From Eledone cirrhosa (lineage: Eukaryota): DNA of 64,000 bases. This document shows positions 1,308 through 42,472 of the stretch, in pieces. The translations under genes were made by a program, and so were the position numbers. The DNA lies in NCBI GenBank assembly GCA_964016885.1, contig OZ024743.1:238886001-238950000 (forward strand). The letters are read 5' to 3'. The notes below the pieces were generated by a model that searched no databases, was not told the DNA's origin, and worked only from the letters and a program-made list of their open reading frames with translations. Positions within the stretch are counted from its first letter, which is position 1, and every line of letters starts with the position of its first letter.

Positions 1308-3061
1308 ATGGCTACGAAAAATAATTTTCACAAGTCACTCCCACTCATTCCGTCTTCTTCTTCCTCAATCGTCACTACAGCAGAGAGAAGATTGTCTCTC
1401 TCCCTCCCTTCTCTAAATGTGTCTCTCTCCCCCTCTTCTCTTTCGCAAGCGACGCCAGCAAAGAAAAATAGTTTACAAAATCACGTGCAAATCAAGGAAC
1501 ATTTCTCCACGACGACGACAACGACGAAAAAGATGTGAGGGAAATACGAAAATCCATTTCATTCGTCTGACGTCAGGAATAATAGCAGTAGCATATTTTT
1601 CGAAACCCAACAGCACTGTACGGTCACGTACCGTACAGTAAACACAAAATCCCGTAGCGTTGAAAGAGCCACAGAGGCTCAAATACAAAAAGCCTTAGGG
1701 TCTGTGTGGCAGCGGAAAACGCATATCACCCGAGGCAAGAAATATGCCACCGTAGACGTGCTTTTTGTCACACCCCAGGAAGCAAAGGCTCAATCCTTAG
1801 TGACCCTAAGGAGCGAGGAAATGGTGTTGGTGCCCTCCTACTGCGGGCAAAAAATTGTGAGGGTCAAACTGACCCAAGACACCCCCCCTCCTGGGATGGC
1901 CCCTTCTTGGCTGATCACGTCTGTCCTCGTCGGAATCGAGGACAAAACAACTGTACTGCAAGTACAGAAAAAAGTAAGAGAAGATTGGGTCGGCACCTCC
2001 ATTGAGATGTTAATCCAAACCAACCAGGAGTGCATCGAAGCTATCCCGGATGTGATAGACTTCGATAACGGCACTCAACTTCCCATAAGTGTTGAGGGCA
2101 AACGCCCGAAAAGCTTTCGCTGTGGATCGAAGACTCACCTCAGAGCCTTCTGCAACGAGAAGACCCTGAGAAAGGAGAAAACCCCTCCTTCCGAAACCGG
2201 CTCCACGGCTACCAGCAACAGGACAAGCGACAACCAGGAACGATAGGTCCGTGGCACCCATACCCACTCCACGGAAATCAAGAACAGCAGCAGCAGTGGA
2301 AGTATTAACAACAACAACAGTAATACCAAATGCAGCTGCAACAGAGACTCCACTGCAAACATCACCAACAACAAGAAGTGAAAGAGTGTAGCTGGTACTC
2401 CTCCCCGACCTCACAGAATCAGACATGGAGTGTGAGTTGGGAGAGGGATGGCAAAAGGTTGTAAGAAGGCACAAACGCAGAAGCAGCGCATCGTCGCCTT
2501 CGAAAAAGGCTACTGCAAAGAGACTCACAGCAGCAACACCACCAACACCATCACCACCCACACTAGCACCACCATCACAACCGGCGACAACCCTACCGCC
2601 AACAACAACAACACCTTCAACACCACAAGCACCAACATCGCAAACACAACAACAAAACACACACACCCAGCAACAACGACAAGAAAATAGCAGAACCACA
2701 CCCCACCCCCAGAAAAACAAATGCACGGCAATAAATACACACAACAAGAAACTAATGACTTACATAATTGAACACAGACATTTCACAGCACGACTACATA
2801 ATACCAGCACCAATCAAAACGCCAACGAACATAAGACTGGTAAAAATAGCACAGAAACAATACACAAACATTAAAACGAAATTCCCCAAAGCAGTTGGGG
2901 ATTTCAGAGACCTAGGAGGGACTCTCAACCGGAGAGTATATTCGTACATACTCATAGAAGAGCCGACGACCAGCCGAAGGGACGATTCAACGGTCCCTTC
3001 ACCAGACGATCAAGTGAAAAGGGATGGAGAAACCATCCTTCCTCTACGAAAAGAACGGTAA
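1308..3061 (+). pseudogene. LINE ORF1 (gag-like nucleic-acid-binding protein), disrupted
   Basis: Fragmented ORFs 1308-1538, 1704-2246, 2425-2874 and 2768-3061. Degenerate zinc knuckle SFRCGSKTHLRAFC (CX2CX4HX4C with first C lost). Thr/Pro/Gln-rich tail. Confidence 0.7.
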
Positions 3062-3096
3062 GTCGTCTTTCCCATCTTTTCCACTCCATTTTAAAC

Positions 3097-5520
3097 ATGA
3101 CCTCACTCAGAACAGGCAGCATAAATGCGCGTGGTTTGGGGTCGTCATGGAAGCAGGGTCACCTGCTCAACGACCTCAGGTCACTAAACATAGATGTAGT
3201 GGCCTTCAGCGAGACCAGTACTCCGAAGCACGGGCCTTCGCACCGATCTTCGGCGGCTACGATGTGTACGCATCTCCCAGCCGTCCTGGATCGGGGGGAG
3301 GAGTTGCTGTGCTTTTTCGGAGAGGTTTGGATCTCGCCATACGGGCCATCTTCCTGAACCCAGAGGGTAAGTTGGTGGTGCTGGACGTGACCAGCGGAGA
3401 CGAGCAAGCTTTCAGGCTAGTGGCCGTCTATGCCCCGACAGGAGCAGGGCGGCCTGATTTCTTCCGGCGTCTGGAGATCTTTCTTGGAACGTCCCGCTCT
3501 TTAGTGATAGTGGGCGACTAGAACGGGATCTTAGATGCACGCTGGGACTGTGTGGGATTAGCGGATAGGGGTGGAGGGTGCAAGAGCCTCACCAACCTGC
3601 TCAGGCGTTTTGAACTGTCTGACAGGTACCGATTGGATTTCCCGAATGTGCCAATGTGGACTTGGACAAATCGCATAGGGTCATCCAGATCATATCTAGA
3701 TAGAGTATTTTGTAGGGAAATAGATAGGTCTAGCATAGGCTGTCCACAATTCAAGATAGTCAGCTATACGGACCACAAATTTGTGATCTGTGTGCTTGAT
3801 TTAGATAGGCTTCATAGACGAGTACCCTGCTACTGGAAGCTAAACTCTTCCTTACCAGCGCGCAAGGCCTACAGAGACCGGATTAGTGAACTAGTTAAGC
3901 GGGCGTTGACGGGGGCCATCGTCAACAACAAGTGGTGGTTTGCTCTGAAAAGAGCGATTAGAATAGAATCCATTAGGATTAGTAAGGCTTTAGCAATAGA
4001 GAAAAATAGAGCAGAGGGAGAACTAGTTAGAAAATTAGACGAGCCGCTTAGCAAAAGCATCGCGACCGACGTGCTTGCGGCGAAATTGGCCCTTGACCAA
4101 TTCTTCAATGTAAAGCACGAAGGCTGCGTTGTCAGAGCTAGGGTGCGTGCTCTCAGACACGAGGGGACGAAAGCCGTTCAATGGACCCGAGTGGCGGAGA
4201 CGCGTCGTGGCAACAAAGCCACGATCCGGTATTTGGTGGACCACGACGGGTGCATGCTACTCGATCCCGGGCAAATGTGTGAAGCTTTTCAGCGACACTT
4301 CGCTCAGCTGTTCGGGGTCAGCGGTTGGCCGGGTCGAGGGATAAACTTTAGTGTCTACCTCGACGGACTGCCGCGGCTCTCGGCCACTGAGGCGAAGTGT
4401 TGCGAAAAGCCGATAAGAGCCGCTGAAGTACGGGAGGCAATGACTGGCTGCACAAGAGGTAAATCGCCTGGTTTGGATGGTCTGCCCTATGAACTTTACG
4501 TACAGATGCGTGACTTGTTCGGAGGCCTCTTGGCGGATGTCTACTGCAACTGGCAACAGAACGGGAGAATTCCCAGCTCCGTGAGCCGAGGAGCGGTGGC
4601 ACTCCTGAGAAAGGATCAGAACAAGGAGGATAACATAGATAATTTCAGGCCCATAACTCTGCTAAACACAGAGTTCAAGATTTTGGTCAAGGTGCTAGCA
4701 AAGAGTTTGGCGCTTATCGTTGGTGGTTGGTGGGATAGGCGCAGACATGCGCCATTCCCGACAGATCCATCCACGACAACCTCCACCTCATGCGATACAT
4801 CGTAGAGAAGGTAGCTAGGGAACCTGGAACGGGTGGGTCTTTGATCAATTTAGATCATTTGAAAGCTTTCGATAGGGTCGACCATCGTTACCTAGCCGCA
4901 GTCTTGAGGGCGGCTGGCTTTGGGCCCGTCTTCAGAGGCTGGATCGCTGCCATGCACAGCGACATCTGCTCTGTGGTGAGAGTCAACGGTCACCTTTCGG
5001 AACCGATCAACATCATGCGCTCGGTCCGCCAGGGATGTCCCCTCTCGTCCCTCTTGTACGTATTGACTCTCGAGCCATTACTTCACAAACTGGAGACGTT
5101 TAGGGGAGTCGCGCGCGAACTAGGATGCTTAAGATCCGTGTCAGCATATGCGGACGATGTCATCGTAGTGGTGTCGAATGCCAAACACATCGAGGCGATC
5201 GGTACTACACTAAGAGAATACGAAGCGGTGACAGGAGCAATGATCAACCAGGAAAAGTCAGTGGGCCTGCAGCTCGGCACATGGAGAGGCAGGTCTATGC
5301 CGTCCAACAGCAAAGTCGGACGCTGGACGGATGGACCGGTTAAATTGCTAGGGGTCTGGTTCGGTTCGGACATCCAGACGGACAAACACTGGGACGAGGT
5401 GACGAGCAGGTTGGCTTCTCTCACCCAGAAATGGGCGGAGAGGAAGCTATCCCTGAAAGGTCGAGCGGAGGTGGCTAACGCGTACATCGCGTCTGTCATC
5501 TGCTACCGCCTGCCGTCGTA
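3097..5520 (+). pseudogene. LINE ORF2: APE endonuclease plus reverse transcriptase, with frameshifts and a premature stop
   Basis: Motifs GSINARG, VYAP, IVGD*N (TAG at 3519), YLDRVF, TDH, WKLN, KSPGLDGLPYE, FRPITLLN, KAFDRV, RQGCPLS and AYADD, spread over several frames. Confidence 0.93.
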
Positions 5521-5589
5521 TCTTGTCCTAAGCCCCGCCTCACTGTTATTCATGTATATAAGTACATATTTAAATATATAATTATATAT

Positions 5590-18312: not shown

Positions 18313-19998
18313 AAATCAGGTTCAATAAAACGTGGTTTTGATGACTCCTAACCATTAGAGGATTCGGTGGACCATCCACCATAGGTTGTTGTTGTCCATT
18401 GGTCATTGGCACGGGGTGTAGGGGACCTACAGGGGGGGGGGGGGGGGCGTTGTGGGAGGCCTTAAGCCGGGTTTATCCATATAGCTTGAGGAAAGTTCCC
18501 GTCCTTAGGTGTCTGCAGGCACCGAATAAGTCGGCCCTTGGTTCCGTCATGAAGTATCTCGAGTGTCTCACTAAGACAGAGGTTGCAAATACCAGACCTT
18601 CCTCTGTCTGGGGGAACCTTTCTAACGACGGACCAGACCAGAGAGTGCGGGGTCTTTTCATGTTTGAGCTTCCAGATCAATTCAGAAAGGGCCGTACATT
18701 TCCTCTTATCTATTCTGTTAAAGGAATAGCGATGGTTATACCACCGATCTTTGAATCTCGTCGCTGTGGACCCTATGTAGTGGTGCTCCGAGTTAGGGGT
18801 TGTGACCTTGCACCTGTAGACTGCGTTTTTCGTGATGGGTCTCTGCAATTACATGACTTCTTAAGCAACAACACCACATGTACCGCGTGGTTACCATCAC
18901 TCGGAGTTGGCTGGGTAGCCTCCACAATCAGCACAGGGTCGTTGGGTTCCGGTGTGCTAGTTCGGCCTGTCCGGGTTAGGGTGCGGCCCGCGTGTGGGTC
19001 CTGTTAGGTGGCTCCGGGGTTTACGGTGGTATTAGAGGCAGTGAGCCTATTCCTATTTATGCCAGCTATGTGTTGGGCTACGGAGCGTGTGGTTGACTAG
19101 GAAAGTATCACCGTGTGCCTGTTGAATATTTTATGGCACTTGTGGGCCCTAGGGAAACATTTATCCAGTACTCTAAAGAATGTTTTAGCCAGGCTGGTAC
19201 GTAGACCCACCGAGTACGGAGGGTTATACCAAGTGACCTTCCTGGTCTTATTCTTGCGGGGTTGTTGGGTGTCCGCCGTGGTCCATCGTGTGGTTGTGCA
19301 CAGCTCAGGTCGAGCTCGGTTGGTGTCACTCAGGTGTGCGGAGCGGTCACTATCAGGAGGGTTATATGGGCCCACCGTGGGGCTATAAAGCTGCGAGGTG
19401 CGGCTTCTCTGCTCAATTAGGGTTCGGCGGGTGGTGGGGCCGGTGGAGGGGTGCCTATGCTCCGCAGCACAGTGGTCTTCAGCGTTGTAGGTATTAGACC
19501 GGTGGGGTGGTGACGGTTAGGGGTCTGGGAGTGTTACTACTGGTCACCGAGGTATTAGGTGGGCGACTCATGCCCCTGAGGGTATTGGTCCGGGGTACCC
19601 CTGGGTCATCTCGATCATGTCCCTTAGGGTTGTAGCTGATCCTACGGCTGTGGGACGCTTGGCTAGCGCTGAGTTATAGTAATCAGCATTACTATTGAAG
19701 ATCTCTTTATTGGCAGACAAGTTAGAGATCCTGTCAGAGACACTCTTAACTACGGCCTTAACTATAGATCTAGGGTGATTAGACCCAGCGTTGATATACA
19801 ACAGCTTCTCATTGGGTTTATGATATGGGTGGTGTAGCTTGATGTTGAGGTTGTGGGTGGTGTCCAGAAAATTCACTACTTTTCTATTGGGTTCCATCTC
19901 TACTTTAAGTCCTACCTTGCTAAAGAAGTGTCTAATTCTCCTCTTCATATTTTCGACCATTGTGGTGCTGTGGTCCACTACGGTGAAGAGTGTGTCGT
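18313..19998 (-). mobile_element. PLE remnant (RT C-terminus, linker, GIY-YIG; Naiad-like) in (AT)n
   Basis: VVNFLDTT..PYHKPNEKLLYINAGSNHP, VTWYNPPYS..LDKCFP..HKIFNR, CNCRDP, NAVYRCKV..HYIGSTATRFKDRWYNH..CNLCLSE. Confidence 0.9.
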
Positions 19999-20222
19999 AT
20001 ATATATAGAGAAAAACCACAGACCCTCCATCTCAACTCACCTTTTGAAAAGAAGAAGAACTGCGAAATCGGTAAAGGAACCAAATAAATATATATATAAA
20101 AAAATAATAAGACTCCAGTTGCATTTTCGATTTCATCTCTTTTTCTTTATACTTTCACTCGTGTAGGACACCTCGGTTATTTTTCATTTTGTAAAAAAAA
20201 AAACCCCTCACTTTCTAATATA

Positions 20223-28512: not shown

Positions 28513-28755
28513 GTATATATATATTTATATGAAGATTTCATCTGAATGAAACAGTACTAGTACTGTAGAAGCTCCTTCTATAAAATATATATATATATTG
28601 GAATAAATGCTCTGAAATAGCGATATATATGTGAATATAGACATAGAATATTCGAAAATATTCTGTATGTTTATAATAAACATTTTGAAGACCTAATCGC
28701 TATAGAATAGAATACGTCACGTATTACAATTAGATTCTCGATAAAAGCAAGGGAA

Positions 28756-30038
28756 GTAATCTACGCGTTTCATTCTCGTAAGAAATCATCAGGACTACAT
28801 ATCCAGTGCTTTTATCGAGAATGACACAGCTAGAGACTTATAGAATACTTAGCTGTGTACAGGAACTGGTTTGAAAGAGCGGTTGCCGGTCCGGCAGAAA
28901 TTAGAAATTGGAATAAATGCTCTGAAATAGCGATATATATGTGAATATAGACATAGAATATTCGAAAATATTCTGTATGTTTATAATAAACATTTTGAAG
29001 ACCTAATCGCTATAGAATAGAATACGTCACGTATTACAATTAGATTCTCGATAAAAGCAAGGGAAGTAATCTACGCGTTTCATTCTCGTAAGAAATCATC
29101 AGGACTACATATCCAGTGCTTTTATCGAGAATGACACAGCTAGAGACTTATAGAATACTTAGCTGTGTACAGGAACTGGTTTGAAAGAGCGGTTGCCGGT
29201 CCGGCAGAAATTAGAAATTGGAATAAATGCTCTGAAATAGCGATATATATGTGAATATAGACATAGAATATTCGAAAATATTCTGTATGTTTATAATAAA
29301 CATTTTGAAGACCTAATCGCTATAGAATAGAATACGTCACGTATTACAATTAGATTCTCGATAAAAGCAAGGGAAGTAATCTACGCGTTTCATTCTCGTA
29401 AGAAATCATCAGGACTACATATCCAGTGCTTTTATCGAGAATGACACAGCTAGAGACTTATAGAATACTTAGCTGTGTACAGGAACTGGTTTGAAAGAGC
29501 GGTTGCCGGTCCGGCAGAAATTAGAAATTGGAATAAATGCTCTGAAATAGCGATATATATGTGAATATAGACATAGAATATTCGAAAATATTCTGTATGT
29601 TTATAATAAACATTTTGAAGACCTAATCGCTATAGAATAGAATACGTCACGTATTACAATTAGATTCTCGATAAAAGCAAGGGAAGTAATCTACGCGTTT
29701 CATTCTCGTAAGAAATCATCAGGACTACATATCCAGTGCTTTTATCGAGAATGACACAGCTAGAGACTTATAGAATACTTAGCTGTGTACAGGAACTGGT
29801 TTGAAAGAGCGGTTGCCGGTCCGGCAGAAATTAGAAATTGGAATAAATGCTCTGAAATAGCGATATATATGTGAATATAGACATAGAATATTCGAAAATA
29901 TTCTGTATGTTTATAATAAACATTTTGAAGACCTAATCGCTATAGAATAGAATACGTCACGTATTACAATTAGATTCTCGATAAAAGCAAGGGAAGTAAT
30001 CTACGCGTTTCATTCTCGTAAGAAATCATCAGGACTAC
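28756..30038 (-). ncRNA. Five minimal type I hammerheads (28756-28798, 29066-29108, 29376-29418, 29686-29728, 29996-30038)
   Basis: Reverse complement of gtagtc CTGATGA t-ttct-tacg-agaa-t GAAA cgcg TA gattac. Confidence 0.9.
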
Positions 30039-30394
30039 ATATCCAGTGCTTTTATCGAGAATGACACAGCTAGAGACTTATAGAATACTTAGCTGTGTAC
30101 AGGAACTGGTTTGAAAGAGCGGTTGCCGGTCCGGCAGAAATTAGAAATTGGAATAAATGCTCTGAAATAGCGATATATATGTGAATATAGACATAGAATA
30201 TTCGAAAATATTCTGTATGTTTATAATAAACATTTTGAAGACCTAATCGCTATAGAATAGAATACGTCACGTACATTTATTCCAATTTCTAATTTCTGCC
30301 GGACCGGCAACCGCTCTTTCAAACCAGTTCCTGTACACAGCTAAGTATTCTATAAGTCTCTAGCTGTGTCATTCTCGATAAAAGCACTGGATAT

Positions 30395-31367
30395 GTAGTC
30401 CTGATGATTTCTTACGAGAATGAAACGCGTAGATTACTTCCCTTGCTTTTATCGAGAATCTAATTGTAATACGTGACGTATTCTATTCTATAGCGATTAG
30501 GTCTTCAAAATGTTTATTATAAACATACAGAATATTTTCGAATATTCTATGTCTATATTCACATATATATCGCTATTTCAGAGCATTTATTCCAATTTCT
30601 AATTTCTGCCGGACCGGCAACCGCTCTTTCAAACCAGTTCCTGTACACAGCTAAGTATTCTATAAGTCTCTAGCTGTGTCATTCTCGATAAAAGCACTGG
30701 ATATGTAGTCCTGATGATTTCTTACGAGAATGAAACGCGTAGATTACTTCCCTTGCTTTTATCGAGAATCTAATTGTAATACGTGACGTATTCTATTCTA
30801 TAGCGATTAGGTCTTCAAAATGTTTATTATAAACATACAGAATATTTTCGAATATTCTATGTCTATATTCACATATATATCGCTATTTCAGAGCATTTAT
30901 TCCAATTTCTAATTTCTGCCGGACCGGCAACCGCTCTTTCAAACCAGTTCCTGTACACAGCTAAGTATTCTATAAGTCTCTAGCTGTGTCATTCTCGATA
31001 AAAGCACTGGATATGTAGTCCTGATGATTTCTTACGAGAATGAAACGCGTAGATTACTTCCCTTGCTTTTATCGAGAATCTAATTGTAATACGTGACGTA
31101 TTCTATTCTATAGCGATTAGGTCTTCAAAATGTTTATTATAAACATACAGAATATTTTCGAATATTCTATGTCTATATTCACATATATATCGCTATTTCA
31201 GAGCATTTATTCCAATTTCTAATTTCTGCCGGACCGGCAACCGCTCTTTCAAACCAGTTCCTGTACACAGCTAAGTATTCTATAAGTCTCTAGCTGTGTC
31301 ATTCTCGATAAAAGCACTGGATATGTAGTCCTGATGATTTCTTACGAGAATGAAACGCGTAGATTAC
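30395..31367 (+). ncRNA. Four minimal type I hammerheads (30395-30437, 30705-30747, 31015-31057, 31325-31367)
   Basis: Stem I gtagtc/gattac, core CTGATGA, stem II ttct/agaa, GAAA, palindromic stem III acgcgt, GUA triplet. Predicted cut after 30431 and then every 310 nt. Confidence 0.9.
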
Positions 31368-31749
31368 TTCCCTTGCTTTTATCGAGAATCTAATTGTAAT
31401 ACGTGACGTATTCTATTCTATAGCGATTAGGTCTTCAAAATGTTTATTATAAACATACAGAATATTTTCGAATATTCTATGTCTATATTCACATATATAT
31501 ATATATATATATGAATATATATATATATTTAAATTATTGATATATTGTTTTATTGATATTTTTTATCTGTTTGTCCCGAATCTTCTATTATCGAATTTTT
31601 ATCGTATGGTTGATTGTAGACTTGTTCTATATGTGACGGTATTTTAACGATAGTTATAGCTCTGATTCATCTGAATTATTGAGCCCTCTGCCGCTCATTT
31701 CGAATTTTGTTTATCGTGAACTCGTGCGCCGATTTTTCGATACTCGATC

Positions 31750-39429: not shown

Positions 39430-39510
<81 letters not shown>

Positions 39511-39757
39511 AGTAATAATAATAAAATTGAAGACTAAAATCCAAAGAGGGCTCGATAAGGAAAATATATATCAAATATATAAGAACCGTAGAGCAAATAT
39601 TTATTAAAATAACAGATTAAAGTTTAAGCAAAGAATCGCTGCTTTCACCCTTAACGGGATCTTCTGAAACTAACAAAGACAATCTGTAATCGCAGAACTG
39701 GATATTTCAAAAAACGTTGCAGCCGGAGGAAGACAGGAAGACGATACTTTGGTTCGT

Positions 39758-41419
39758 GACCGTAAAACTAATCGGTGCGTCATCAATGAAATCAACGATG
39801 CTGGGTTTAAAATCACATCTGATCTCAACATCCTGGACCGGACCGAACCTCTGGACCCTATCTCTCCCCACTTTACCCTGAAGGATCACAAATCCAATTT
39901 TCCGAATAACCCCTCTATTCGGCTTATTAACCCTACGATGTCCGATTTAGGTAGACTTAGTAAAACGATTCTTGATAGAATTATACCTGAAATTAGAAGT
40001 TTGGCCCTCTCGCACTGTGGAACAATTCTTTCGCGGTGATTGATTGGTTCAACGGCATATGTAACAAGGAACATTGCCGTTTTATCCAATTGGACATCAA
40101 CAATTACTACTCCTCCATCACTTTACCACTTCTCCTTAGAGCTATCAATTTCGCTAAAACACTCACAGTGGTTAAGGATTTTTAAGTTGATGTCATCCTT
40201 AATGCCCGAAAGTCGGTGATTAATTTCGACGACTCTATTTGGATTAACAAATCCAATAGTACCCCATTCGACGTGAGTATGGGCGCCAGTGACTCTGCGG
40301 AGGTTACTGATCTTATTGGCCTTTTCCTTCTTTTCTCTATCAAGGACGAATTCCCCAACGCGGGCGGTGGTTTGTACCGTGACGATGGTCTTTTGACCAT
40401 GACTAAGTGCGGACCTCGTGCTTTCGACAGGTTCAGAAAAGAACTCACAGCCTTCTTTAAAGGCTTCAACCTCTCTATACAGGTTGAGGCCAATCTCTCG
40501 GTCGTTAATTACCTCGACGTTACCCTCAATTTATTGAATGGGTTGTATTACCCGTATAGAAAGCCGAATGATACGCCTTAATTACATAAGTAAGCATTCC
40601 AATCATCCTGCCAGCATAACCAAGTGCATTTTCAACGACCATTCCACTTATTACAATGAAGCTCTTGCTCGGAGTGGATTTGTCGATAAGGTAGCATATA
40701 CAGAGTATGAAAATAGACCTAGAAGAAATAGATCCCGTCACATTTGTTGGTTTAACCCACCATATAATATGGAGGTGGCCACACCATTAGCTAAGATCTT
40801 TCTTTCCCTTATTACGAAGCATTTTCCCCCTACACATAAATATAGTAAAATTTTTAATAGAAATACTATTAAAATTTCTTACTCTACGACTCCTAACCTT
40901 GCACATAACATCACAGCTTCAAATTTAGCTAAACTACCTAGCCGTAGGAACACGTGCAACCCTGTAGTTAGTACTAACTGTAATTGTAGGAATCGGGCTG
41001 ATTGCCCCCTATCCGGGAAATGCCTCTCTAGTAACATTGTCTACAAATGTAAGGTTGTAACACCCACGTCCCGTAGGGCCTACATAGGGTTAACCGCCAA
41101 TAGTTTCAAGCAGCGTCTTTACATGCATACCCATTCTTTTCGTTACCCTCTAAGAGGGAATATGACGTCACTTTCAGCTTATATCTGGAGTCTAAAAGAC
41201 AACCACACCCAATATAAGTTACACTGGGAGATCCTAGCTAGGGCTACATCGTATAACGGAAATAAAAGACCATGTGACCTCTGCGCCGCTGAGGCCCTGG
41301 AAATACTCTACGCCATAGACCACATCTTAAACAAAAAATCTGAGGCAACTTCGGCTTGTAAACATAAATTGCACAAAACTTTCCTGTATTACAGCCCCAC
41401 GTTATACCCTAACGGATAG
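39758..41419 (+). pseudogene. PLE reverse transcriptase plus GIY-YIG endonuclease, frameshifted
   Basis: HFTLKDHKSNFPNNPSIRLINP, FDVSMGASDSAEVTDLIG, GLYRDDGL, VNYLDVTLNL, SNHP, WFNPPY, CNCRNRADCPLSGKC, NIVYKC..AYIGLT..FKQRLYMH, CDLCAAE..ILNKKSE..CKH. Confidence 0.93.
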
Positions 41420-42347
41420 CACGATCTATACGTGGATATTTTACGTCTTGATGTGGGAGCTAAGTATATGTTTTGTTTATTCCTTTACTTATTTGCATAG
41501 GTAAGTATATATTATCCATATGTTTTGTGAAGGTATGTATACCTTCTCGTACGTATATTTGACTGTTATGGCGTATCATTTTTACATATTCTGGTATTTA
41601 GGGTTTGGCTATGTGTATACCGGAGTTTTGCGTCCGAGTGAGTATGCAGGTTCGTACGTATGGTGGGTGTGTGTATATGTGTACTTCTTGTTTTAGTTGA
41701 CTTACGTCTCCGAACATTCGTGTATTTATATGTAGGTATGTGTGTGCGCTTGTTATATACGTATTTATTTACTTATATACGTTTATATAATTATTTATTT
41801 ATTTGTACACAAGCATACACACACACACATATTTATATGGGCGTGGTTTTGTATACCTATGGTAAGGTTTTGCGTATGCTTGTGTATGTACGTATCTGTT
41901 TGCGTGTATGTATTTATTTGTTTCTATTACTTCTGTATCGTATTTATTTACTTTGTTCGTAACTCTGAAGCGGAGATTCATTTGGTCTCCTAGTTAGAAT
42001 TTTAGTCTACGACTTCTGCTATACCATTTACGTGGTTTTGTCTTTGCGTGCTTTTGTTCTCCACGCTCCACATATGACTTATTATCTTCGTTTTTTCGTT
42101 CATTGCCAGAGAACGTCTCTATGCACCATCTAAGAGAACATTAGTCTACGACCTCCTTTATACAATAAACGTGGTTTTGTCTTTGCGCGTAATTGTTTTT
42201 CACCGCTCCTATTAATGACGTATTATTCGTTTTTTCCCGTTCTTTGCAAGCGAACGTTACCACGAACCAAAGTATCGTCTTCCTGTCTTCCTCCGGCTGC
42301 AACGTTTTTTGAAATATCCAGTTCTGCGTTTACAGATTGACTTTGTT

Positions 42348-42398
42348 AGTTTCAGAAGATCCCGTTAAGGGTGAAAGCAGCGATTCTTTGCTTAAACT
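42348..42398 (+). ncRNA. Hammerhead-like motif with CAGAAGA core (family B PLE terminus)
   Basis: agttt CAGAAGA t-ccc-gttaa-ggg-t GAAA gca-(9 nt)-tgc TT aaact. About 13 copies in the window. Confidence 0.65.
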
Positions 42399-42414
42399 TT
42401 AATCTGTTATTTTA

Positions 42415-42472
<58 letters not shown>

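What the first reader, a model, noticed from the sequence alone, without database searches (positions are those of the whole stretch)
28597..31500. Retrozyme candidate: 310-bp non-coding monomers, each with a canonical minimal hammerhead ribozyme
Seen: about 9.4 apparently identical 310-bp units with no ORF. Nine of them carry gtagtc-CTGATGA-tttcttacgagaat-GAAA-cgcg-TA-gattac, which has an intact core, a 6-bp stem I, a 4-bp stem II, a palindromic stem III and a GUA triplet. Established: metazoan non-LTR retrozymes are tandem monomers of a few hundred nt with minimal type I HHRs that are processed to unit-length linear and circular RNAs, and are thought to depend on PLEs. Inference: this is a young retrozyme family, probably from a cephalopod, producing a 310-nt circRNA. 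I cannot check whether this family is already described. It would ordinarily be masked as a satellite.
Basis: partly seen in the sequence, partly recalled or inferred. Interest (0 to 1): 0.92.

Follow-up and report, generated by a model that had tools for sequence, protein, structure and literature searches.

The report
Hammerhead retrozyme with Penelope insertion footprint
This 310-base repeat carries a hammerhead ribozyme motif in every unit and lies at over a thousand places in this animal genome, mostly as back-to-back arrays with the ends typical of Penelope-like jumping genes, which likely means a borrowed Penelope enzyme copies a small RNA circle round and round into DNA.

Summary
Observation confirmed, with additions. 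The window holds two perfect arms of one 310-bp non-coding unit (5.41 units on -, 3.96 on +), joined 5'-to-5', with nine type I hammerheads. These are canonical, not minimal: helix I continues into a 16-bp stem. The family is dispersed and young: 13,319 intact cores genome-wide, at least 1,041 insertions. Older sister families show compensatory helix changes and a U3-A8 core swap (1,434 copies), so the ribozyme fold is under selection. That is the Penelope-like-element footprint. Rare variants are shared by all units of both arms. Best reading: a non-LTR retrozyme whose circular RNA is likely reverse-transcribed in rolling-circle fashion from both nicked target strands by a Penelope-like enzyme. 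Not shown: cleavage, RNA, circle, helper element. The window's haplotype is predicted to misfold partly. The scan noted a similar footprint on other DNA before (e1-7881736). Known class; unusually clear mechanistic evidence.

The parts
28597..30273 (-). Left arm: 5.41 identical 310-bp units, five hammerheads; its 3' end points outward and carries the tail
30274..31500 (+). Right arm: 3.96 identical units, four hammerheads; its 3' end points outward, no tail
30273..30274 (.). Blunt 5'-to-5' inversion junction (unit position 39 on - meets position 153 on +; position 1 = first base after the cleavage site)
30395..30437 (+). Type I hammerhead (first + copy): helix I 6 bp, CUGAUGA, helix II 4 bp over a U.U mismatch, GAAA, palindromic helix III, GUA; predicted cut after 30431
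30371..30459 (+). Extended helix I: internal loop plus 16-bp stem (30371-30386 with 30444-30459); in the cut monomer the same helix is predicted to hold the two ends together
30432..30741 (+). One unit-length RNA between two cleavage sites (310 nt, 34.5% GC); predicted circle
   Evidence: z = -3.9
30509..30547 (+). Two hairpins just 5' of the first fixed end, kept by compensatory changes in sister families; candidate signal for the helper reverse transcriptase (inferred)
31491..31500 (+). Fixed end A (unit positions 129-139, AT-rich, merges with the target repeat)
28597..28622 (-). [quoted passage not shown]
28585..28596 (.). (TA)n target, left flank
31501..31528 (.). (TA)n target, right flank

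Best explanation
This is a non-coding, hammerhead-bearing 310-bp tandem element (a non-LTR retrozyme) inserted at over a thousand (TA)n sites with Penelope-type ends, and it is likely spread by a Penelope-like reverse transcriptase/endonuclease that would copy a circular unit-length RNA several times round from both strands of the target. Steps: (1) an arm is transcribed (inferred; promoter unknown); (2) hammerheads cut after GUA, probably as dimers through the palindromic helix III, releasing 310-nt monomers (motif shown, activity inferred); (3) the long helix I holds the ends together and a host RtcB-type ligase closes the circle (established for axolotl and mussel retrozymes, PMC7229834; inferred here); (4) a helper Penelope-like protein, most likely of the (TA)n-targeting Hydra clade, binds the conserved hairpin module, nicks both strands of a (TA)n tract and starts cDNA at two fixed sites, positions 129-139 and 165 (fixed ends and target shown; enzyme inferred from PMC11167929); (5) each cDNA runs 0.7-14 times round the circle (lengths shown; circle inferred); (6) the two cDNA ends are joined through short microhomology, giving a head-to-head array with a one-sided tail (junctions shown).
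For: Dispersal and youth: 13,319 intact cores, 1,041 exact tail-end/(TA)n junctions, control 0, 98-100% identity between loci. Footprint: 28 of 33 loci are two-armed and divergent, none convergent; 27 of 27 scorable ones have one end A and one end B (20 at exactly 165, 7 at 159-172); the 5 single-arm loci all end at A. In the first 200 Mb of C1, 55 of 76 B ends face outward from an A end within 10 kb (0.4 expected), with 0 B-B and 0 A-A pairs. Inverted 5'-truncated copy, one-sided 30-40-bp tail and (TA)n bias are the described marks of Penelope-like insertions (PMC8557442, PMC3846280), and the tail equals the gap between two reverse-transcription start sites with both target strands extended (PMC11167929). 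A Hydra-clade element in this genome shows the same footprint with an 86-nt tail. One template per locus: rare variants fill all units of both arms (L044 6/6, L045 11/11, L047 15/15, L048 5/5, L052 two changes 13/13; L058 and a 311-bp form); across 94,825 bases 21 variant calls are locus-wide, 45 are single-unit, 2 lie between, none forms a block of neighbours. Inner ends fall at positions 16-291 in 61 of 61 arms, none at the cleavage site, so templates were not cut linear monomers. Ribozyme under selection: helix I 148/152 and helix II 129/152 cells paired across 38 distinct variants versus 86 and 43, 51 and 73 when slid; 97% of 405 cells paired, 57 two-sided changes, 0 of 500 shuffles as high; C3-G8 swapped to U3-A8 in 1,434 copies of a sister family (same swap reported in PMC4209133).
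Against: No cleavage, RNA or circle is shown. No autonomous element sharing the end module was found, although non-autonomous Penelope-like elements usually resemble their helper's 3' end (PMC8557442). In the window's haplotype the 5' strand of helix II is predicted to pair with the core GAAA instead (probability about 0.8 against 0.08), so this copy may cut poorly; 8 of 9 Xenopus retrozymes did not cleave in vitro (10.64898/2026.07.22.740005). Two loci are chimeric (L038 outermost unit, L036 innermost hammerhead carry another subfamily's letters) and one variant sits in one unit of each arm of L049, so 'one circle per locus' is not strict. Homogeneous arrays would also arise from a homogeneous linear multimer. 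Ten of the 21 locus-wide calls are just the commonest subfamily letter. Single-unit variants may be later mutations or assembly errors. For the anole Penelope-like protein, hammerhead cleavage was not needed for insertion in vitro (PMC11167929).
Confidence: 0.68

Rival explanations
1. Same element and same Penelope-like helper, but the template is a long, uncut linear multimer transcribed from a donor array; the hammerhead is slow, and circles, if made, are a side product.
For: Gives the same ends, tail and inversion. The window's haplotype (about 9,300 of 13,319 cores lack the helix II closing pair) is predicted to misfold. Unprocessed RNA was the main substrate of the anole enzyme (PMC11167929). 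L049 has one variant in one unit of each arm.
Against: New variants, including an insertion, become fixed in all units of both arms, which needs a one-unit bottleneck. Only 1 of about 34 non-fixed events is shared by both arms. Arms could only shorten over rounds of copying, yet reach 14.4 units; no arm carries donor flank or a donor inversion junction at its inner end in 61 arms (L067 has one short internal fold-back).
Confidence: 0.2
2. Short Penelope-type insertions (one to two units) later grow into arrays by local DNA amplification such as unequal crossover, as proposed for Xenopus retrozymes.
For: Proposed in 10.64898/2026.07.22.740005. Explains variants shared by both arms, since both come from one RNA. 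Sister family 2 has mostly 1-2-unit arms.
Against: No blocks of neighbouring units share a variant. The youngest family has the longest arrays and the older family 2 (about 91% identity to the query copy) the shortest in the 30 loci seen, opposite to growth with time. Both arms of nearly every locus would have to expand separately.
Confidence: 0.09
3. Ordinary satellite DNA or an assembly fold-back artefact; the hammerhead match is incidental.
For: Units are 100% identical; inverted junctions can be sequencing chimeras; Rfam finds nothing.
Against: Two different fixed ends with unique flanks at many loci; compensatory changes and the U3-A8 swap; 15 different strand-crossing joints and a (TA) loose end at unit position 170 also stand in contigs of a public run (may be the same sample).
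Confidence: 0.02

Closest known systems
Metazoan non-LTR retrozymes (coral, mussel, axolotl; Cervera and de la Pena 2020, PMC7229834)
   Same: Tandem 150-450-bp non-coding units, low GC, canonical type I hammerhead in each unit, many copies, Penelope-like elements in the same genome. The U.U mismatch at the base of helix II matches axolotl HHR_Amex2. That paper's model predicts tandem cDNA from a primed circle and names Penelope-like elements as candidates.
   Different: That paper's main text has no mention of inverted arrays ('inverted' 0 hits), a tail or a (TA)n target; it tested RNA, which I could not. Sequence is unrelated as far as known (not compared; supplements not read).
Penelope-like element insertions (Arkhipova 2013 PMC3846280; Craig 2021 PMC8557442; Frangieh 2024 PMC11167929), especially the Hydra clade
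   Same: Inverted 5'-truncated copy, one-sided tail, two fixed start sites 3' of a hammerhead, (TA)n target.
   Different: No ORF; both arms are long multimers of one small unit instead of partial tandems; end A has clear microhomology to the target, whereas the anole enzyme started at a non-homologous site; hammerhead canonical rather than minimal.
Xenopus non-LTR retrozymes as pLTR derivatives (Li, Clavereau, Pollet 2026, 10.64898/2026.07.22.740005)
   Same: Links retrozymes to Penelope-like elements.
   Different: Evidence there is co-occurrence and pLTR homology, and arrays are ascribed to local amplification; 'tail' 0 hits and 'inverted' only in a reference title. Here the link is the insertion footprint and no pLTR homologue was found.
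Non-autonomous Chlamys elements such as MRC1 (PMC8557442)
   Same: Non-autonomous Penelope-like elements with multicopy head-to-tail insertions.
   Different: That clade lacks canonical hammerheads, and its non-autonomous members resemble the helper's 3' end.

Membership tests
Metazoan non-LTR retrozyme | Tandem units of about 150-450 bp, GC below 45-50% | tested here: met
   310 bp, 34.5% GC
Metazoan non-LTR retrozyme | Canonical type I hammerhead in every unit | tested here: met
   9 of 9 full units in the window; covariation; U.U at base of helix II as in HHR_Amex2 (PMC7229834)
Metazoan non-LTR retrozyme | No protein coding capacity | tested here: met
   longest ATG ORF 30 aa
Metazoan non-LTR retrozyme | No LTR, primer-binding site or polypurine tract | not tested
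   no terminal repeats other than the unit itself are seen, but no tRNA-complement search was run
Metazoan non-LTR retrozyme | Many dispersed copies; Penelope-like elements in the same genome | tested here: met
Metazoan non-LTR retrozyme | Self-cleavage as monomer or dimer | not testable with these tools
   folding only; window haplotype predicted to misfold partly
Metazoan non-LTR retrozyme | Expressed as linear and circular unit-length RNA | not testable with these tools
   no RNA holder listed
Metazoan non-LTR retrozyme | Long target-site duplication when present | tested here: inconclusive
   both flanks are (TA)n, so a duplication cannot be read
Non-autonomous Penelope-like element | Inverted 5'-truncated copy at the 5' side | tested here: met
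   28 of 33 loci
Non-autonomous Penelope-like element | Tail of about 30-40 bp at one end only | tested here: met
   26-36 nt in 20 of 27 scorable loci, end B at 159-172 in the other 7; 55 of 76 paired ends, 0 same-type pairs
Non-autonomous Penelope-like element | AT-rich or microsatellite target | tested here: met
   outer ends in (TA)n
Non-autonomous Penelope-like element | Sequence similarity to the 3' end or pLTR of an autonomous family | tested here: inconclusive
   none in the families seen; only a small part of the genome's many families was sampled
Minimal hammerhead of Penelope pLTRs (PMC4209133) | Lacks helix III and the loop 1/closing helix | tested here: not met
   helix III (2 bp, palindromic) and a long helix I are present

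The most novel reading that the evidence does not exclude
Each locus is the fossil of one reaction in which a Penelope-like enzyme primed both strands of a (TA)n cut on a covalently closed 310-nt ribozyme RNA and rolled round it up to 14 times: natural rolling-circle target-primed reverse transcription of a viroid-like circle, recorded more than a thousand times, with a weakened hammerhead favoured because it keeps the circle closed. This would be the first genomic proof that circles are the transposition intermediate of animal retrozymes and would explain the Penelope inverted-plus-tail structure as two-strand priming.
Probability: 0.55. Interest if true: 0.85.

Novelty: new member of a known kind. 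Interest (0 to 1): 0.7.

Why it matters
Two linked questions are open in print: what mobilises animal retrozymes and whether their circles are really the templates (PMC7229834 proposes both; the 2026 preprint favours local amplification and says the mechanism remains to be shown), and how Penelope-like elements make their inverted and tailed insertions (PMC8557442). A very young family with more than a thousand near-identical loci, two exactly mapped start sites, a small conserved hairpin module and two natural ribozyme haplotypes of different predicted strength gives a 310-nt substrate and clear predictions for both. A reverse transcriptase that writes a chosen small circle into (TA)n as a multimer would also be of technical interest.

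Tried and rejected
Rfam at gathering and E-value thresholds: nothing relevant. Sequencing runs: no RNA holder listed. Laying four runs of unknown kind: three hold the unit as one 340-letter contig (310 plus overlap), which fits tandem DNA as well as a circle, and they also hold a neighbouring unrelated repeat, so no evidence on expression; summed depth is no copy number. Search for the helper: pattern on the shared module with family-excluding letters gave 175 matches, and the 30 loci read were retrozyme relatives or fragments with no RT ORF attached; the window's Hydra-clade element has the same footprint but an 86-nt tail and no similarity to the unit; GIY-YIG family search, 46 loci read of 150 matches, showed other Penelope-like families without the module; a pLTR-like repeat whose hammerhead matches 25 of 28 bases led to no ORF in the two loci extended. 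The end A pattern count (1,362) is unusable alone because its control gave 779. No clear Pol III A/B box was seen by eye, and two T4 runs lie on the sense strand; promoter unresolved. Linear monomer with template jumping rejected: no inner end at the cleavage site in 61 arms. The Atlas search of the Hydra-clade protein gave unnamed GIY-YIG/HTH clusters only. The organism was not identified.

Full report
Observation. The stretch 28597-31500 is a perfect array of a 310-bp unit, 34.5% GC, without coding capacity. It is two arms: 28597-30273 (5.41 units, hammerheads on the - strand) and 30274-31500 (3.96 units, + strand), with no mismatch between units and a blunt 5'-to-5' junction. Nine hammerheads are present as quoted. 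I number the unit from the first base after the predicted cut (30432 = 1).

The ribozyme. Core, helix I (6 bp), helix II (4 bp over a U.U mismatch), a palindromic helix III and a GUA triplet are in the sequence. Helix I continues into a 16-bp stem with pair probabilities 0.8-1.0, so it is a canonical metazoan type I motif as defined in PMC4209133 (passages read), not a minimal one. The palindrome self-pairs at -7.5 kcal/mol, which suits dimeric cleavage. Rfam misses it. Selection on the fold shows in relatives found in the same genome: a closed-helix II subfamily (4,039 matches), a 312-nt form (L122), a 316-nt family 70% identical to this one and older forms of about 319 nt. Across 38 distinct hammerhead variants, 148 of 152 helix I cells and 129 of 152 helix II cells pair, against 86 and 43, and 51 and 73, when slid by one and two. 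On 15 whole units, four helices pair in 97% of 405 cells with 57 two-sided changes; 0 of 500 shuffles reach these values, but 43 of 500 reach the count of 12 covarying pairs, the structure came from the same alignment, and the rows are kin. One sister family has swapped the core pair C3-G8 to U3-A8 in 1,434 copies, control 0; the same swap is known from a Schistosoma Penelope-like element (PMC4209133). Against: in the window's own haplotype the 5' strand of helix II is predicted to pair with the core GAAA (about 0.8) rather than form helix II (0.08), whereas the closed form folds correctly (0.9). This copy is probably a weak cutter; tertiary contacts are not in that model.

The family. The unit is dispersed: 266 matches among 39 scored candidates on many chromosomes, 13,319 exact cores genome-wide (about 4.1 Mb, 0.14%), and 1,041 exact tail-end/(TA)n junctions, a lower bound on insertions; about 7 cores per locus in the first 14 loci suggests roughly 1,900. 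The window's haplotype is a minor one.

I read 33 loci: the window, 22 picked for likeness to it and the first 10 in genome order. 28 are two-armed and divergent, 5 single-armed, none convergent; 9 of the 10 unselected ones are two-armed. Outer (3') ends lie in (TA)n at two fixed places: end A at positions 129-139, where the unit itself is AT-alternating, and end B at 165. In 27 of 27 scorable two-arm loci there is one of each (B at 165 in 20, at 159-172 in 7; L032 runs off its contig); single-arm loci all end at A. In the first 200 Mb of C1, 55 of 76 B ends have an outward-facing A end within 10 kb (0.4 expected), with no B-B or A-A pair. Inner ends are scattered (positions 16-291) and joined by 1-5-nt overlaps in 16 of 28, short insertions in 7, fold-back overlaps in 4, bluntly in 1. 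An inverted 5'-truncated copy, a one-sided 30-40-bp tail and microsatellite bias are the described marks of Penelope-like insertions (PMC8557442, passages and section 11; PMC3846280, passages). For the anole element the tail is the gap between two reverse-transcription start sites, and both target strands are cut and extended (PMC11167929, parts 1-2 of 4). As an internal comparison, the window's own Penelope-like element at about 39.4-42.5 kb carries the Hydra-clade motifs DKT, CxCX5C, CxxC and CxH, has many 94-98% identical copies, some with 713-codon frames, and shows the same (TA)n, inverted, two-ended structure with an 86-nt tail. The older sister family 2 has the same two ends with shorter arms. 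Two hairpins just 5' of end A are kept with compensatory changes across families; I infer that they are the signal for the helper.

What the template was. Arms hold 0.65-14.4 units, median 4.4 (61 arms). Rare variants are shared by every unit of both arms (L044, L045, L046, L047, L048, L049, L050, L052; L058, a 311-bp form and a two-change form). In 94,825 bases, 21 variant calls are locus-wide (10 of them the common subfamily letter), 45 are in one unit only (about 33 events), 2 lie between, and none forms a block of neighbouring units. No inner end lies at the cleavage site. This is what repeated copying of one closed monomer gives; it fits local unequal crossover poorly and cut linear monomers not at all. 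It does not exclude a homogeneous linear multimer. Two chimeric loci (L036, L038) and one variant present once in each arm of L049 show template switching, gene conversion or recurrent error. In the cut monomer the long helix I is predicted to bring both ends together, which suits ligation by RtcB, the route shown for other retrozymes (PMC7229834, Results parts 1-2 of 3 and Discussion).

Not found. No RNA holder was listed, so expression is open. No autonomous element sharing the end module was found; the genome holds many Penelope-like families and I sampled few. The Hydra clade is my best guess for the helper because of its (TA)n targeting and abundance here; this is inference. The organism was not identified.

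Comparison with print. It is a member of the non-LTR retrozyme class on every sequence feature tested; the RNA features are untested. The rolling-circle, Penelope-assisted model was proposed in PMC7229834 and repeated in PMC7761336 (passages); the 2026 preprint (parts 1-3 of 5) links Xenopus retrozymes to pLTRs but ascribes arrays to local amplification, and only 1 of its 9 elements cleaved. I found no paper describing inverted, tailed retrozyme arrays or a cephalopod retrozyme in searches; the library lacks most subscription papers, I did not read supplements (figures S6 and S9 of PMC7229834 may bear on this), and repeat databases were not searched. Earlier notes of this scan report a like footprint for a ribozyme-free tandem element and for small palindromic insertions in other genomes (unchecked, seen after my reading was formed); nothing by sequence or in this genome.

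Verdict. Real; new member of a known kind; interest 0.7 because it makes the circle-template and helper questions directly testable. Retrozyme with a selected hammerhead about 0.95; spread by Penelope-like machinery about 0.9; circle as template about 0.7.

Noticed in passing
window 39430-42470 (+): Broken copy of a very abundant Hydra-clade Penelope-like element (79,146 first-look candidates; 713-codon frames in some copies; 86-nt tail; 139-141-bp tandem units in its 3' region; no canonical hammerhead found there). Related non-coding pieces at about 55.5-58.1 kb.
   Followed up: partly
window 16010 (-), 17802 (-), 25215 (+), 37453 (-), 52066 (-): Other hammerhead-like motifs; 17802 ends a second Hydra-like element (ORF pieces 18462-20146) next to (TA)n, 52066 follows a decayed Penelope-like fragment. 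About a dozen more hammerhead families turn up in fetched flanks.
   Followed up: partly
L083-L142: A superfamily of older sister retrozymes (312, 316, about 319 nt) sharing the end module; position 10.1 toggles between a paired and a U.U form in both family 1 and family 2; a third family uses the U3-A8 core.
   Followed up: partly
L052:2604-6679: Two A-to-G changes on opposite strands of helix I are fixed in all 13 units and keep pairing as G.U; could be an A-to-I edited RNA copied back into DNA (untested; too few cases).
   Followed up: no
L038:4875-4945: One unit lacks 10 bases spanning the cleavage site exactly; another unit at the outer end carries a different subfamily's hammerhead.
   Followed up: partly
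L214:1-315, L218:7050-7220, L156:3100-3220: A separate repeat (1,513 candidates, about 97% identical) ends in a hammerhead with nearly the same helix II and two ends in (TA)n about 65 nt apart; no ORF found upstream in two loci.
   Followed up: partly
L209-L224: Several other C-terminal GIY-YIG Penelope-like families with frames up to 1,096 codons; a U3-A8 hammerhead-like motif recurs near one of them.
   Followed up: no
window 28597-31500: Every two-arm locus is a long inverted repeat with a short spacer; read-through transcription would give kilobase double-stranded RNA, a likely substrate for editing or small-RNA silencing.
   Followed up: no
window 1539-5581 (+): Decayed non-LTR retrotransposon with endonuclease-like and RT frames (Pfam RVT_1, E 2.5e-20).
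   Followed up: no
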